IMG/VR virus record: IMGVR_UViG_3300020128_000040
Length of the DNA: 64,000 bases
Origin: a virus
Taxonomy: Duplodnaviria; Heunggongvirae; Uroviricota; Caudoviricetes; Herelleviridae
Reading direction: 5' to 3' (one strand)
In this document: positions 51,001-64,000 of the stretch, piece after piece
Numbering within the stretch: position 1 is the first letter of the stretch
Layout: the number at the start of each line of letters is the position of its first letter
Program-made: the position numbers

Positions 51001-54000
51001 AGGATTCGCATCAAGCGCAACCAGCGGATCAAGGACCGGATCAACCAGGACTACAACAAGGGCCCGTCCACCGGCCGGATCACCGGCCTGGGCCGGGACG
51101 AGACGCAGATCCTCCAGGGCGACGACCCGACCCTGGGATACTAGGAAGCAAGCAGCACGCAGCACTACGAGACAAAGGAGGACGAGATGTCCATCAGGAG
51201 CATGGTAGAAGAGTCACTGGGGTACGTGACCCCGCAGGAGCGCGAGCAGATGCACGCGTGGGAGAAGGAGATCGAGGCCGAGAAGGCGGCCGCCCAGCAG
51301 GGCACCGCCGCGACCACGATCAACTCCGGGCTGGGCACGGCCCTGGACTTCGGCGACAAGGCTCTCAACGGCCGCGTCATCGCGGAGTCCGACGGGCGCG
51401 TGTCGTCCCGGCCCAAGGTGCAGCGGCGCGTCATCACCGAGGAGGTCTCCAGCCAGGACCTGGGTCCCGACTTCTGAGACGGGGCCGGCCGGGGCGGGCA
51501 CCCTCGCCCCGGCATCGTCCTGTGGTAGTCTATAGGCTGGTAGACCAGCCGAAAACGGCTGCCTGAGACGAACGCGCAGAGACTTGAGACTGATGGAGGT
51601 AGCCGACATGGCAGACAACGACACGAGGACGACCAAGAAGGAGTTCCTCGCAGCCGTGTCCAAGCGGGCCGGCGTGACCGGCAAGGTGGCGCAGGACGTG
51701 TACGCGGCCATGGTCGACGAGCTCCTGGAGACGGTCTCCGACGGCAGGGACCTCCTGCTCACCGGCTTCGGGCGGTTCTACGCCCGGACCCACGCCGGGC
51801 ACAGCGTGCAGTTCGCGGCGGGCGACGACGGCGAGCCTGCGGTGATCGACGACTACCGCGTGCTGAAGTTCTCCGCCTCCCGCGAGGTCAACCGCGGCCT
51901 CGACAAGAAGACGTAGCCGGGGAGCAGCGCTCCCCCGGTGTGAAAAGACAAGACCCCCGCAAGCCGTGATGGCTCGCGGGGGTCGTCTACTCCTACAGGG
52001 TCACCAGTCGCTCTCGGCGACCAGGTGATGAGGGCCGGAGGGGTCGTCGGCCCGGGCCACGGAGGCCCTGGTGACGAACGGGCCCTCGTAGCCGCCCCAG
52101 GAGGGGCTGTCACCGTCGGCGCGGAACGCCTCGAGGTCGGCGGCACGGGCTCCGTAGTCCTCGAAGAACGGCTTGTCGTCCTCGGTGAGGTACTCGGCGA
52201 CGGCCTTGACCAGCTCGTCGGCGGCCTGCTCGGGGCTCTGCCCCTCGCGGGGCTCGACCTCCAGGTGGACGACCAGGCGCACCTGGGCGCGCCCGGCGCT
52301 CACAGGGCCCTCCAGGCGATGACCTGGCCACTGTCGGCGACGACGAGCTCGAACGACCCCGTCTCGCGCCCGGTCAGCTTCGGGCTGGTATCCGAGGGGT
52401 GGATGCCCTGCTCGGTCAGGTAGAGGCCCTGGGTCGAGTGGAACCGGTAGCGGGTCGGGCGCGAGCGCCCGCCCGGGATCTTCTCCACGCGCTGGACGTC
52501 GACGACGACCGGGCTGCCGGTGCGTGAGGGTGAGGACATGCTCTGTGCTCCTTCTGTGATCTGTTTGCGGGTGGTGGTGGCGGCACGCGCCGCCGGTCAG
52601 GAGTCGAGGAGGTCCTCGATCTCGCCCCAGCGGTCGTAGACGTCCTCCCAGCGAGAGGCGACGTCCTGCATGCGCGAGCGGGTCGCGGCGTCCTCGGCCA
52701 TGGCGTCGTCCCACGCGGCGGGGTCGTCGATGAGCGACTCCACGTGCGACCTGATGAGGTCGACGAGGACCGGCGGGTCGAGGGCGTCCAGCTCCCAGGA
52801 CTGCCGGCCGTAGCGCTGCACGTAGCCCGAGCCGCGCGAGTCCGTCAGCTTGGCCGGGTTCGGCGGCGGGCCGTACTGGTTGATCTGCGCCATGGTGAGC
52901 GCGATCCGGCGCACGTCGACGTCGAACCCGGCGAACATCGACAGGCGGTCCCGGATGTCCCGGGACATGTCGATGCCCGAGGGGTCGTGGTCGCCCAGGT
53001 GGAAGACCACAGGCTCGAAGCCCTGCGAGGCCACGGCCCTGATCCGCTGGGCGGCGGCCCACATCTCCGACTGCGACACGTAGCCACGGCAGGAGAAGTA
53101 CGGCGCGAACAGCGGGTCGGCGGCGCGGGAGACGACGTCCACCAGGGCGTCCTTCTCCACCCACACCCAGGGGCGGGACAGCTGGCCCGAGACCTCCCAC
53201 ACGTCGCGCTTGAACTGCGACGCGCTCGCGTCGATGATCGAGGAGGGCGAGCCCCAGGTGGTGACCCGGCGCTCGTTGCGGGTGCGGTCGGTCAGGTGGT
53301 CCCAGTCGATCAGCCCGGCGAGCCGGGCGTCGTTGACGATCGAGCCGAGCCGCTTGTAGGAGCGGTCGGAGTTCTCGATCAGCGCCTTGGCGACGAACTG
53401 GTAGTACAGCTGGCGCAGCGTGAGCTCGTAGCCCATCGCCGCGTACTGCTCGCAGATGTCGTTGGCCTGCTCGATGATGTCGAGGGTGTCGGCCCGGAAG
53501 GCCTTCTCGACGTAGACGATGCGGGGCATGCCATCACTCCTTGTCCTGGGTCGGCGGCACGAGCCGGTCGACGGCGAGGCCCGCGTCGGCCACGGCGGAG
53601 CGCAGCTCCAGCCGCAGCGCGGGGTCGAGCCCGGGGGCGCTGTCGACCCTGTCGTACAGGGCGGTCAGGTGCCTTAGCAGGGCGTCCTTGGTGGTCGGCA
53701 CGGGGTCCGCCATGTCACTCCTCCTCCACGGTCACCTCGGCGACCTCGTACACGGAGTCGCCGTCTGCGCCGAGCCCGTGGAGGGTTTCGCCGTCGAGGG
53801 CGTTCTCCACGAGGTCGACGAGCTGCTCGGCGATCTCCTCGCGCGAGGCGAACTTGCCGGACTCGCGCTCCACCGAGACCTCGGCCACGATCCTGAAGGC
53901 GTGCGCCATCAGGACCGCCGCTCCGCCATGAGCCTGAGCAGGGCGCGGCGCTCGGTCTCGACCCGGTCGAGGTCGATCTTGAAGTACTCGGCGAGCACGG

Positions 54001-63000: not shown

Positions 63001-64000
63001 CGTGGTGGGAGCAGGACCCCTGCCGGGTCGAACGCGCGGCCGTCAGGCCGTGGCGGACGTGAAGGCCGACGTGTCGTCAGCTCCCTCGCCGTCGTCGTCC
63101 CCGTCGCCGCCCCCCTCCTCGGTGGAGGGGAGCGCGTCACCGCGCGTGGAGTAGCCGACGGACGCCGGCGGCAGCGACGCCAGGGCGTCGTCGTCACCGG
63201 ACTCGGCGGCCTCCTCGGCCTGCTTCAGCAGCAGGGCCAGGGCGGCCTCCACGTCGTCCTCGGCCATGGTGTCGAGGTCGACACCCTGGGCCCGCAGGGC
63301 CGCGACCCGCTCCTTGTGCAGGAGCGAGTCGACCACGAGGGCGTAGTCAGACTCGATGCGCGGCTTCTTGACGGAGCCGTAGGACAGGATGAACTCCGTG
63401 TTGATGGCCCGGGTCAGGGCCACGTAGTACATCCGCTTGTTGGCCTCGTCCATCTGGGGGTCGAACTTGTGGATGACCACCACGTTGTCGAACTCCAGGC
63501 CCTTGGCGCCGTGGATCGTCGAGACGACCAGGCGGGCCTTGGACTGCAGGTTCTTCTCCTTGCGCTCCTTGTTGCGCTGGTTCAGCAGCGACTGCTTGAT
63601 GGCGTTGCGGCTGATCTCGAAGGACAGCAGCGACTGCCGGAGCGTGTCGAAGTACTCGTCGTCGGTGATCATCCCCGCCGACACCTGGGCCAGCCACCCC
63701 GCGATGGAGGTGTGCGTCTCCAGCCACCAGTCGGACACCATCCGCATCACGGCCGGGCGCGCCTTCTTGTCGTCGCCCCGGATGAGCGTCGGCAGGTTGG
63801 TGTCGATCCCGTGGGTCACGGCGAAGGCCGCGTCCTTGATGTCGGGCACCTGGCGCACCTCGTCCCAGTGCTTCTTGATGAACTCCGAGAACACCGTGGT
63901 CGAGTAGGCCCGGTCGGAGACCAGGTTGGCCACCTCCATCGCCGGGTACTCCTTGGCGAGGGCCGTCTCCATGATCTTCACGCTCGCGCGGTCGTAGGCC

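What the first reader, a model, noticed from the sequence alone, without database searches (positions are those of the whole stretch)
52001..64000. Convergent minus-strand operon of tightly coupled genes with phage-like nucleotide-metabolism and toxin/defence content
About 20 co-oriented ORFs are joined mostly by ATGA/GTGA overlaps. They encode:
- a UvrD C-terminal fragment
- a MazF/PemK-fold protein with an extra C-terminal domain, flanked by two small partners
- an AAA ATPase preceded by a CPHCG zinc-ribbon mini-ORF
- a T4-Dnk-like dNMP kinase
- a MazG-like NTP pyrophosphohydrolase
- a Spo11/TopoVI-A-like Toprim protein
- several acidic mini-proteins

MazG, a Dnk-type kinase, a helicase fragment and a toxin together is the signature of phage or ICE counter-defence and nucleotide-pool manipulation arsenals, or of a composite defence island. 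The combination with a TopoVI-A-like protein is not a described system.
Basis: partly seen in the sequence, partly recalled or inferred. Interest (0 to 1): 0.75.

Follow-up and report, generated by a model that had tools for sequence, protein, structure and literature searches.

The report
Variable accessory arm of conjugative element
The flagged stretch is the fast-changing accessory end of a helicase operon in a widespread but little-studied family of actinobacterial conjugative elements, filled with phage-type genes that probably help the element settle in a new host; it is not one new multi-gene system.

Summary
Window 52001-64000 carries 22 co-oriented minus-strand genes, and 15 of the 21 junctions overlap or lie within 4 nt. 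Every domain call was confirmed: UvrD_C, PemK/MazF, AAA, T4-type dNMP kinase, MazG-like, and a TopoVI-A-like protein that is a textbook "Mini-A".

Two corrections:
- The "helicase fragment" is a complete 991-aa helicase cut by the window edge.
- The surroundings are a MobL-relaxase/T4CP conjugative element, not a phage.

Seventy-plus related elements across Actinomycetota share one layout. A ClpB-like ATPase gene and an SF1 helicase gene are followed by a variable run of small genes. That run converges on the HU gene that ends the transfer operon.

Within the run:
- Recurrent families: G2, G3, a "long MazF", the AAA ATPase and G15.
- Rare family: MazG.
- Found only in this element: the dNMP kinase, Mini-A and nine small genes.

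No block-specific protein matches a PADLOC defence model; the only hits are generic GajB/UvrD models on the helicase.

The best reading is an establishment/anti-defence-type variable island, like those described for pLS20-family plasmids. This is an inference from comparative data, not a demonstrated function. Interest is moderate to low.

The parts
63043..64000 (-). G1: 3' part of a 991-aa SF1/UvrD-like helicase. The gene continues to about window coordinate 66018, beyond the window. It is the last conserved gene before the variable run.
   Evidence: UvrD_C and UvrD_C_2 hits. The full gene was seen on identical contigs (Pfam). Orthologues at 41-59% identity lie in 72 loci.
62362..62955 (-). 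G2: acidic 197-aa protein (pI 4.4) of a run-typical family with unknown function.
   Evidence: No Pfam or PHROG hit. Homologues follow the helicase in 17-28 related loci.
61716..62276 (-). G3: acidic 186-aa protein (pI 4.2, net -26), coupled to the MazF gene by an ATGA overlap. It is a candidate antitoxin or inhibitor protein.
61030..61719 (-). G4: 'long MazF', a PemK/MazF endoribonuclease domain (residues 24-138) plus a helical C-terminal extension of about 90 aa.
   Evidence: PF02452 1.1e-24. phrog_1936 covers residues 25-200. PDB MazF 4mzm 1.4e-12. A family of 190-235-aa homologues sits in the same ICE context.
60704..61030 (-). G5: acidic 108-aa ORFan, with a 1-nt overlap with the stop of G4.
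   Evidence: No family hit and no homologue in related loci. Not similar to the c33 protein that precedes PemK in sister loci.
60269..60616 (-). G6: 115-aa basic protein of unknown function.
   Evidence: 57% identical homologue in the Cryobacterium locus L007.
59979..60272 (-). G7: acidic 97-aa ORFan (pI 4.05).
59773..59982 (-). G8: 69-aa predicted lipoprotein with the lipobox LAGC. It could act in exclusion, but this is inference only.
   Evidence: phrog_3641 2.3e-21. The signal peptide and lipobox are read directly from the sequence.
59291..59776 (-). G9: acidic 161-aa protein with a CxxC motif.
   Evidence: Homologues lie next to G15 or AAA homologues in L007 and L008.
58629..59294 (-). G10: very acidic 221-aa ORFan (pI 4.05, net -32).
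58467..58625 (-). G11: 52-aa CPHC-containing mini-protein, a short member of a Zn-binding-like family of the runs.
   Evidence: Homologues at 50-72% identity in 15-19 loci, usually just after the AAA gene.
57308..58396 (-). G12: classical-clade AAA ATPase with Walker A GDKGQGKS and Walker B LVVFDE. It is the most conserved gene of the run.
   Evidence: PF00004, and phrog_2376 at 1.7e-86. p97/Cdc48 D2-like in PDB. Present in 46 of 72 loci. Homologues occur in large lytic phages and in a phage-like nucleotide/replication module of pBTHD789-2.
56924..57214 (-). G13: basic 96-aa ORFan.
56265..56936 (-). G14: T4 Dnk-type deoxynucleotide monophosphate kinase with P-loop GWKQSGKN.
   Evidence: PF21448 at 67.9 bits (cut-off 27.1), and phrog_139 at 2.3e-43. 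No homologue in the other 72 runs.
55247..56263 (-). G15: 338-aa acidic protein of an uncharacterised family (phrog_4657), the second most recurrent run gene.
54813..55250 (-). G16: 145-aa Pro/Ala-rich ORFan.
53909..54835 (-). G17: MazG-like (all-alpha NTP pyrophosphohydrolase) domain plus a C-terminal extension of about 95 aa.
   Evidence: PF01503 3.2e-10, and phrog_671/4159. PDB 3nl9 and DR2231. Homologues occur only in L007 and L010.
53715..53909 (-). G18: acidic 64-aa protein.
   Evidence: 43% identical homologue in L007.
53534..53713 (-). G19: 59-aa ORFan.
52597..53529 (-). G20: Mini-A, a stand-alone TopoVI-A/Spo11-like protein (5Y-CAP plus Toprim).
   Evidence: phrog_6247 5e-99. 44-53% identity to phage Mini-A proteins, including Listeria phage LWP01. 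Motifs RQLYY(39), EKD(125), DHDPSG(180) and WELDAL(245) match the definition in PMC7671362.
52300..52539 (-). G21: basic 79-aa ORFan.
52001..52303 (-). G22: acidic protein of about 100 aa, with a GTG start and a GTGA overlap with G21. It is the last gene of the run.
   Evidence: Start analysis. 42% identical homologue at the same position in the Microbacterium loci L012 and L048.
51952..51984 (-). Strong hairpin terminator at the convergent junction with the HU gene (51584-51916, + strand).
   Evidence: 14-bp stem, 11 GC pairs, T-tail. Fold z-score -6.9.
57227..62302 (-). Four copies of the intergenic motif CCCYAAATG (57227-57235, 58418-58426, 60632-60640, 62294-62302). Each copy sits 3' of GC-rich sequence, which forms a strong, significant hairpin only upstream of G12 and G13, and just 5' of the SD/ATG of G13, G12, G6 and G3. 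The motifs punctuate the block into sub-operons.
   Evidence: These are the only 4 matches in 64 kb, all on this strand and all in the gaps of 70-93 nt; 0.2 are expected by chance. Hairpins upstream of G12 and G13 fold at z about -3; those upstream of G3 and G6 are not significant, z -1.2 and -0.7. The motif is absent from sister loci. It was derived post hoc from these same gaps.

Best explanation
The block is the hypervariable accessory segment at the 3' end of a conserved operon (MoxR ATPase, VWA-like protein, ClpB-like ATPase, SF1 helicase). This operon belongs to a widespread family of actinobacterial conjugative elements, plasmids and ICEs, that carry a MobL relaxase and a coupling protein. 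The operon runs head-on into the end of the transfer operon (T4CP, 1849-aa protein, p895, HU) and stops at a strong terminator.

The segment is a gene-exchange hot spot. A small family-typical core (G2, G3, long MazF, AAA ATPase with Zn mini-protein, G15) is interleaved with genes captured from actinophages: a dNMP kinase, a MazG-like NTP pyrophosphohydrolase, Mini-A and a small lipoprotein.

Shown:
- the anatomy of the block
- the domain identities
- the conjugative context
- the conserved position with variable content
- the absence of defence-system matches

Inferred: the genes act as 'establishment/anti-defence' functions expressed when the element enters or replicates in a host. The proposed roles are:
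- protecting or processing incoming DNA (Mini-A, with the helicase)
- keeping dNTP pools usable (Dnk, MazG)
- neutralising host proteins (acidic small proteins, AAA unfoldase)
- enforcing retention or host shut-down (long MazF, with G3 or its own C-terminal tail as inhibitor)

It is an assortment of independent functions, not one machine.
For: Context:
- The + strand encodes a MobL relaxase (1.7e-67), a T4CP, a TopA-like protein and a lysozyme.
- The same element occurs on 20 metagenome contigs, the longest 142 kb.

Conserved architecture:
- It is seen in the Streptomyces plasmid NZ_CP109461, in Cryobacterium and Streptomyces genomes, and in 72 of the 77 loci found with the helicase.
- At least 32 of these loci show the convergent HU/p895/p1849 junction.
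- Run length varies from about 0.8 kb to more than 10 kb.

Family census of the runs:
- AAA ATPase in 46 loci, an unnamed family c1 in 33, HNH in 31, G15 in about 30, G2 in 17-28.
- An orphan N6-methyltransferase in 9, a PNKP phosphatase in 10, a T4-type RNA ligase in 1, PemK in 8-9, MazG in 2.
- Dnk and Mini-A in 0.
- Most of the other families have no Pfam hit.

The long MazF was sampled independently three times. Each time it sat in helicase, G2-like, G3-like, PemK, about 200 aa, N6_Mtase, AAA.

Phage affinity:
- PHROG hits for 8 genes.
- Mini-A is 75% identical at the DNA level over 338 nt to a gene of Microbacterium phage Fizzles.

Other points:
- PADLOC gives no block-specific hit.
- The closest described kind is the pLS20 family, the MobL archetype. 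There the conjugation operon is conserved while the establishment/anti-defence islands are variable and clustered, with 14-20 mostly unknown genes plus MTases (PMC8708921).
- Leading-region islands hold anti-defence, MTase and TA genes in a single orientation (PMC11541004).
- The sub-operon structure has a repeated intergenic motif, with strong hairpins in some of the gaps.
Against: - No protein of the block matches a known anti-restriction or anti-defence family. Pfam gave no ArdA, ArdC, KlcA, Ocr, SSB or PsiB hit.
- This element lacks the orphan methyltransferase that its sisters carry.
- oriT was not located. If the transferred strand follows the F-plasmid rule relative to the relaxase operon, the minus-strand block would enter late and in the sense orientation, so it would not be a classical leading region.
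- VirB4 was not recognised by Pfam in the + strand operon.
- No expression or functional data exist.
Confidence: 0.6

Rival explanations
1. The block is a DNA-metabolism support module for the element's own rolling-circle replication and transfer. The helicase, Mini-A (DNA cleavage or topology), the dNMP kinase and MazG (dNTP supply and sanitation), the AAA ATPase and the neighbouring HU would form a replication/processing toolkit rather than anti-defence functions.
For: - The block sits in the same transcription unit as an SF1 helicase, and the element also encodes a TopA-like enzyme and a second UvrD.
- In B. thuringiensis pBTHD789-2 the G12-like ATPase lies among thymidine kinase, SSB, RecA, ThyA, DHFR, helicase, dUTPase and dTMP kinase genes.
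- G12 homologues sit in large lytic phages that carry their own replication genes.
Against: - Dnk and Mini-A are absent from all 72 sister runs and MazG is in only 2. They therefore cannot be required for the family's replication.
- Run length shrinks to less than 1.5 kb in some apparently intact elements: L011, L052, L060, L064.
- Most run genes are small acidic ORFans.
Confidence: 0.2
2. The block is phage-derived cargo with no role for the element. It would be a remnant of, or a recombination product with, actinophage early regions, carried passively in a permissive insertion hot spot.
For: - PHROG families account for 8 genes.
- There is DNA-level similarity to a Microbacterium phage.
- The Mini-A literature reports only viral carriers.
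- IS elements populate the same region in plasmid NZ_CP109461.
Against: - All genes are intact, have high GC3 (0.86-0.99), are tightly coupled and are co-oriented with the operon.
- The identical block is present on 20 contigs.
- The core genes are collinear with Microbacteriaceae elements at 35-57% identity, which indicates purifying selection.
- The large + strand gene products scanned against PHROGs gave no phage head, portal or terminase family. The only tail- or lysis-type hits fall on the lysozyme-domain protein at 22729-24714, and the smaller ORFs were not scanned. No integrase family was found in the window ORFs scanned against Pfam.
Confidence: 0.1
3. The block is a composite defence island that protects the host or the element against phages or rival plasmids. 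The MazF toxin, AAA ATPase, helicase and nucleotide-depleting MazG would act as abortive-infection effectors.
For: - A PemK toxin is present.
- The helicase scores on GajB/UvrD models.
- A GmrSD_N+HNH type IV restriction-like gene lies at the far left of the window.
- A GmrSD_N and a TerD protein occur in sister runs.
Against: - No block-specific protein hits any of the 5027 PADLOC models.
- The GajB hits are generic UvrD-core matches, and no GajA partner is present.
- The identifiable functions (dNMP kinase, orphan MTase, PNKP phosphatase, T4 RNA ligase, Mini-A) are typical of invading elements rather than of host defence.
Confidence: 0.07

Closest known systems
Establishment / anti-defence islands of pLS20-family (MobL-relaxase) conjugative plasmids (Val-Calvo et al. 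2021, PMC8708921) and leading-region anti-defence islands (Samuel et al. 2024, PMC11541004)
   Same: - A conserved large transfer operon stands next to a clustered, highly variable set of about 15-20 mostly unknown small genes.
- The genes have uniform orientation and are split into several sub-operons.
- Orphan methyltransferases and toxin genes are present across the family.
- A repeated sequence lies upstream of several sub-operons.
   Different: - The host phylum is Actinomycetota.
- The island is the 3' continuation of a MoxR/VWA/ClpB-like/helicase operon and converges on the transfer operon.
- No ArdA, ArdC, SSB or PsiB is present.
- The content is phage-like: Dnk, MazG, Mini-A, HNH, PNKP.
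- The position relative to oriT and early expression are untested.
- The repeated motif is not shared with sister elements.
Mini-A subfamily of type IIB topoisomerase A-subunit homologues (Takahashi et al. 2019/2020, PMC7671362)
   Same: - About 300 aa (here 310 aa).
[quoted passage not shown]
- It carries the diagnostic WELDAL box.
- There is no GHKL B subunit nearby.
- It is 44-53% identical to phage Mini-A proteins.
   Different: - It is encoded on a conjugative element rather than on a virus or provirus.
- More divergent relatives (about 30% identity, WEVEAL box) sit on many Streptomyces plasmids.
- The family's activity is still unknown.
MazF/PemK type II toxins (e.g. S. aureus MazF 4mzm, B. 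subtilis EndoA)
   Same: It has a full PemK fold (residues 24-138), and the Arg aligned with the catalytic Arg is conserved.
   Different: - It has an extra helical, partly acidic C-terminal extension of about 90 aa that is conserved in a 190-235-aa family.
- There is no MazE/PemI-type antitoxin gene.
- It is always embedded after the G2/G3-like genes of this family of conjugative elements.
- The residue aligned with the catalytic Thr is Ser.
Phage early-region nucleotide enzymes: T4 gp1 Dnk-type dNMP kinase and phage MazG-like NTP pyrophosphohydrolases
   Same: Profile membership is clear: PF21448 with phrog_139, and PF01503 with phrog_671/4159. The P-loop and acidic metal-binding motifs are present.
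   Different: - They are carried by a conjugative element.
- MazG has an extra C-terminal domain of about 95 aa.
- No dNMP-modifying enzyme (hydroxymethylase or ThyX) is recognisable between them.

Membership tests
Mini-A (type IIB topoisomerase A-like) | Length of about 300 aa with 5Y-CAP catalytic Tyr in an RxxY/F-Y context | tested here: met
   310 aa; RQLYY at residues 39-43; definition taken from PMC7671362.
Mini-A (type IIB topoisomerase A-like) | Toprim metal-binding E followed by DxDxxG | tested here: met
   EKD at residue 125 and DHDPSG at residue 180.
Mini-A (type IIB topoisomerase A-like) | T2BI box with the xWELDAL signature that separates Mini-A from Topo VI and Topo VIII | tested here: met
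   WELDAL at residues 245-250.
Mini-A (type IIB topoisomerase A-like) | No adjacent GHKL/Bergerat B subunit | tested here: met
   No GHKL/HATPase family among the Pfam hits of the 20 block products scanned, G1-G20.
Mini-A (type IIB topoisomerase A-like) | Encoded by free or integrated viruses (as reported) | tested here: not met
   The context is a MobL/T4CP conjugative element. This is a reported distribution, not a structural criterion.
MazF/PemK type II toxin-antitoxin | PemK/MazF fold above the Pfam gathering score | tested here: met
   PF02452 at 87.2 bits against a cut-off of 23.1; PDB MazF hits down to 1.4e-12.
MazF/PemK type II toxin-antitoxin | Catalytic Arg and Thr/Ser positions | tested here: inconclusive
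   In the 4mzm alignment the Arg of G-V-R-P aligns with D-R-P. The catalytic Thr region aligns with an S-rich stretch. Activity was not tested.
MazF/PemK type II toxin-antitoxin | Adjacent cognate MazE/PemI-type antitoxin | tested here: not met
   Flanking G3 and G5 have no Pfam or PHROG family. There is no consistent downstream partner across loci. G3-like genes are consistently upstream, but they also occur without PemK.
T4 Dnk-type dNMP kinase | PF21448 profile match and P-loop | tested here: met
   67.9 bits against a cut-off of 27.1; phrog_139 2.3e-43; GWKQSGKN.
MazG-like all-alpha NTP pyrophosphohydrolase | Profile match plus acidic metal-binding helices (ExxE ... DxxD type) | tested here: met
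   PF01503 at 40.7 bits against a cut-off of 21.3; 3nl9 and DR2231; LIEEEGFHE and DALVD read from the sequence. Substrate is unknown.
Establishment / anti-defence island of a conjugative element | Lies inside a conjugative element, clustered and co-oriented | tested here: met
Establishment / anti-defence island of a conjugative element | Gene content highly variable between related elements while the transfer genes are conserved | tested here: met
   Census of 72 loci.
Establishment / anti-defence island of a conjugative element | Contains recognised anti-restriction or methyltransferase genes | tested here: not met
   None in this window. An orphan N6_Mtase is present in 9 sister runs and in 3 of 3 further contexts.
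Establishment / anti-defence island of a conjugative element | Located on the leading side of oriT with the T-strand as template | not tested
   oriT and nic were not located. The relaxase gene lies 20 kb away on the opposite strand.
Establishment / anti-defence island of a conjugative element | Early, transient expression in the recipient and an effect on establishment | not testable with these tools
   This needs mating and transcriptome experiments.
Known anti-phage defence systems (PADLOC-DB v2) | Match of the component proteins to a defence-system model set | tested here: not met
   No hit for PemK, AAA, G15, MazG, Mini-A or Dnk. Only generic GajB/UvrD hits for the helicase and AAA hits for upstream ATPases.
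Prophage | Structural, packaging, lysis and integrase genes nearby | tested here: not met
   The + strand gene products scanned against PHROGs gave no head, portal or terminase family. The only tail- or lysis-type hits fall on the lysozyme-domain protein at 22729-24714. Pfam instead gave conjugation and DNA-processing domains. There is no tRNA gene.

The most novel reading that the evidence does not exclude
The run could be the functional equivalent of a leading-region anti-defence island for a large, uncharacterised family of actinobacterial T4SS-type ICEs and plasmids. Under this reading:
- Its recurrent unknowns (G2, G3, G15, the p97-like AAA ATPase with its Zn mini-protein, and the long MazF) are new inhibitors of actinobacterial defence systems.
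- Mini-A, Dnk and MazG are counter-defence tools captured from actinophages.
- The block is possibly transcribed on entry by the element's own 1849-aa RNA-polymerase-like protein, which carries a DFDGD motif.
Probability: 0.3. Interest if true: 0.65.

Novelty: new member of a known kind. Interest (0 to 1): 0.35.

Why it matters
- T4SS-type conjugative elements of Actinomycetota, including Streptomyces and plant-pathogenic or clinical relatives, are barely characterised. This locus defines a conserved landmark (helicase, variable run, convergent HU) where their fast-evolving accessory genes can be harvested. That makes it a practical hunting ground for new anti-defence or establishment proteins.
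- Mini-A topoisomerase-like proteins are not restricted to viruses.
- The work delineates a 'long MazF' family specific to these elements.
- The particular gene combination in this window has no special significance by itself.

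Tried and rejected
- Near-identical DNA search against phages and plasmids gave only a 338-nt phage match and T4CP matches.
- Concatenated-protein tblastn for synteny in PLSDB and INPHARED gave only single-gene hits, so no known plasmid or phage carries the block.
- G5 was tested as a relocated homologue of the c33 gene that precedes PemK in sister loci, and rejected.
- The repeated intergenic motif CCCYAAATG was tested as a family-wide regulatory element. 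It is absent from all sister loci, and no analogous AT-containing 8-mers are shared among their intergenic regions.
- Sigma-70 promoter scan: none found, which is uninformative for Actinobacteria.
- A literature search for YonO-like polymerases on conjugative elements returned a false positive on an author name.
- The prophage reading was rejected: there is no tRNA gene and none of the products scanned matched a capsid, portal or terminase family.

Full report

Yes. The window is about 70% GC. GC3 frame analysis and the ORF list give an unbroken series of 22 minus-strand genes from the window end down to 52001. Independent gene calls on identical public contigs give the same genes.

The 21 junctions break down as follows:
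- 7 four-nt ATGA/GTGA overlaps
- 2 one-nt TGATG overlaps
- 2 longer overlaps
- 4 gaps of 1-4 nt
- 6 gaps of 57-93 nt

The operon ends at a very strong hairpin terminator (51952-51984). This lies directly opposite the stop of an HU-family gene on the + strand.

**2. Domain assignments**

All were confirmed by profile searches:

| Gene | Call | Evidence |
|---|---|---|
| G1 | UvrD_C | Pfam hit |
| G4 | PemK_toxin, residues 27-133 of 229 | best PDB relatives are MazF/EndoA |
| G12 | classical AAA ATPase | phrog_2376 at 1.7e-86; p97 D2-like |
| G14 | T4-type dNMP kinase | PF21448, phrog_139 |
| G17 | MazG-like NTP pyrophosphohydrolase with extra C-terminal domain | PF01503; 3nl9 and DR2231 |
| G20 | TopoVI-A-like | phrog_6247 'DNA topoisomerase' at 5e-99 |

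G20 carries every diagnostic motif of the published Mini-A subfamily: RQLYY, E, DHDPSG and the WELDAL box. It is 44-53% identical to phage Mini-A proteins.

Many products are strongly acidic.

- The helicase is not a fragment. It is a 991-aa gene cut by the window edge.
- The PemK neighbours are 186 aa and 108 aa.

**3. Context**

The + strand from 5.6 to 51.9 kb encodes the following:
- a second UvrD helicase
- a 1117-aa pentapeptide-repeat protein
- a TopA-like topoisomerase
- a cell-wall hydrolase
- a MobL relaxase (1.7e-67)
- a ClpB-like ATPase
- a VirD4/TraG-type coupling protein
- an 1849-aa protein
- HU

The window is therefore part of a T4SS-type conjugative element, not a phage. None of the gene products scanned matched a phage capsid, portal or terminase family, and there is no tRNA gene. 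VirB4 itself was not recognised by Pfam.

The same element occurs on 20 metagenome contigs, the longest 142 kb. Upstream of the helicase lie a MoxR ATPase, a VWA-like protein and a ClpB-like double-AAA ATPase.

**4. Comparative test of co-localisation**

No plasmid in PLSDB and no phage in INPHARED carries the block in synteny. The architecture, however, is conserved.

A search with a helicase alignment returned 77 loci. They come from Streptomyces, Arthrobacter, Microbacterium, Kribbella, Nocardiopsis, Promicromonospora, Brevibacterium, Actinomyces and a few Clostridia MAGs. Many are chromosomal, so those elements are ICEs.

In 72 of these loci the helicase is followed by a same-strand run of small genes. 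In at least 32 the run visibly ends at the convergent HU, p895 and p1849 genes. Run length ranges from about 0.8 kb to more than 10 kb.

Census of the runs:

| Family | Loci |
|---|---|
| AAA ATPase (G12) | 46 |
| c1 (unknown, 240 aa) | 33 |
| small HNH | 31 |
| G15 | about 30 |
| G2 | 17-28 |
| G3 | 6-25 |
| Zn mini-protein (G11) | 15-19 |
| SsgA-like | 14 |
| LuxR | 11 |
| PNKP phosphatase | 10 |
| orphan N6-methyltransferase | 9 |
| long MazF | 8-9 |
| MazG | 2 |
| dNMP kinase, Mini-A, G5, G7, G8, G10, G13, G16, G19, G21 | 0 |

Most of the other families have no Pfam match.

The closest organisation is in Microbacteriaceae elements: G2, G3, PemK, N6-MTase, G6, AAA, G15, MazG, G22, collinear at 35-57% identity. 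Three further, independently sampled long-MazF genes all sit in helicase, G2-like, G3-like, PemK, about 200 aa, N6_Mtase, AAA.

A core is co-localised elsewhere. The headline combination (MazG + Dnk + toxin + TopoVI-A-like) is not.

**5. What it most likely is**

It is a hypervariable accessory island at a fixed position in a conjugative-element family. It combines family-typical unknowns with genes captured from actinophages. For example, Mini-A shares 75% DNA identity over 338 nt with a gene of Microbacterium phage Fizzles.

No block-specific protein matches a PADLOC defence model; the only hits are generic GajB/UvrD models on the helicase.

The nearest described kind is the 'establishment/anti-defence island' of the pLS20 family, the archetype of MobL plasmids. 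There the transfer operon is conserved. The clustered establishment operons are highly variable, mostly of unknown function, and regularly include methyltransferases (PMC8708921). Leading-region islands of proteobacterial plasmids show the same logic (PMC11541004).

The sister runs carry orphan MTases, a PNKP phosphatase and a T4-type RNA ligase, which are classic counter-measures to restriction and tRNA nucleases. I therefore infer an establishment/counter-defence role. This is inference only:
- No known anti-restriction family is present in this window.
- oriT was not located.
- By the F-plasmid rule the block could be transferred late.

**6. Details of possible mechanistic interest**

(a) Four of the six larger gaps carry the motif CCCYAAATG immediately upstream of the SD/ATG of G3, G6, G12 and G13.
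- These are the only four matches in the 64-kb window; 0.2 are expected by chance.
- Each follows GC-rich sequence, but strong, significant hairpins occur only upstream of G2, G12 and G13.
- The block therefore looks divided into sub-operons.
- The motif was derived post hoc and is absent from sister loci.

(b) The long MazF has a conserved helical tail of about 90 aa and no MazE-type partner. G3, or the tail itself, is a candidate inhibitor.

(c) G15 gives a confident AF2 model (pLDDT 88.8) with no PDB fold match.

(e) G12 homologues are common in large lytic phages. In a phage-like B. thuringiensis plasmid they sit within a nucleotide/replication module. This keeps a DNA-metabolism role alive as the main rival explanation.

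**7. Verdict**

The ICE accessory and counter-defence flavour is plausible. A defence island is not supported, and the block is not a single system.
- Novelty is limited. This is a new member of a known kind of locus, with two modest additions:
  - Mini-A occurs on conjugative elements, and a divergent form occurs on Streptomyces plasmids.
  - A long-MazF family is specific to these elements.

Noticed in passing
window 42032-47581 (+): An 1849-aa protein lies directly after the coupling-protein gene. It has a weak RNA_pol_Rpb1_2 hit (1.5e-5) and the sequence SFDGDFDGDSVAV, which contains the DFDGD Mg-binding motif of the beta' double-psi beta-barrel. It is conserved at 33-51% identity next to HU/p895 in at least 13 related elements. 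It may be a single-chain two-barrel RNA polymerase or primase of a conjugative element.
   Followed up: partly
window 673-1899 (+), within the lower-GC first 4 kb (GC 0.58-0.60): A 408-aa protein with GmrSD_N (DUF262) and HNH domains. It resembles a type IV restriction enzyme and sits in a compositionally distinct segment at the left end of the window.
   Followed up: no
window 5614-7143, 7287-10640, 11230-13410, 33499-35355 (+): The transfer-side operon encodes a second complete UvrD helicase (509 aa), a 1117-aa pentapeptide-repeat protein (possible DNA mimic), a TopA-like topoisomerase and a second ClpB-like double-AAA ATPase. VirB4 was not recognisable by Pfam.
   Followed up: no
L086 3983-4834 (Streptomyces canus plasmid NZ_CP109448) and about 36 other Streptomyces plasmids: These plasmids carry divergent Mini-A-like proteins: about 30% identity, with motifs RQCWY, EKD, DLDASG and WEVEAL. 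The plasmids are typed as non-mobilizable. Mini-A relatives are therefore not confined to viruses.
   Followed up: partly
Sister loci L013, L017-L019, L022-L025, L027, L029, L030, L032, L033, L037, L040, L042, L043, L050, L053, L071 (runs downstream of the helicase): Runs in Streptomyces-type and Arthrobacter-type elements recurrently carry SsgA-like sporulation/division proteins, LuxR-family regulators, small HNH nucleases and PNKP-type phosphatases. One T4-type RNA ligase was seen. L089 carries a UmuD/UmuC-like pair.
   Followed up: partly
L001 (Streptomyces sp. NBC_01454 plasmid NZ_CP109461, 639 kb), locus 18358-27500: In this related plasmid the same variable region has been invaded by IS3 and IS110 elements and carries a DUF262 protein. 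This fits the region being an insertion hot spot. MOB-suite types the plasmid as non-mobilizable even though it has a T4CP.
   Followed up: no
L064, L068, L072 (Muribaculaceae, Clostridia, Oscillospiraceae MAG contigs): Helicase orthologues at 32-41% identity occur in low-GC MAGs. L064 also has HU, p895 and p1849 homologues, and L072 has a PemK homologue. The element family may therefore extend beyond Actinomycetota, or the bins may be contaminated.
   Followed up: no
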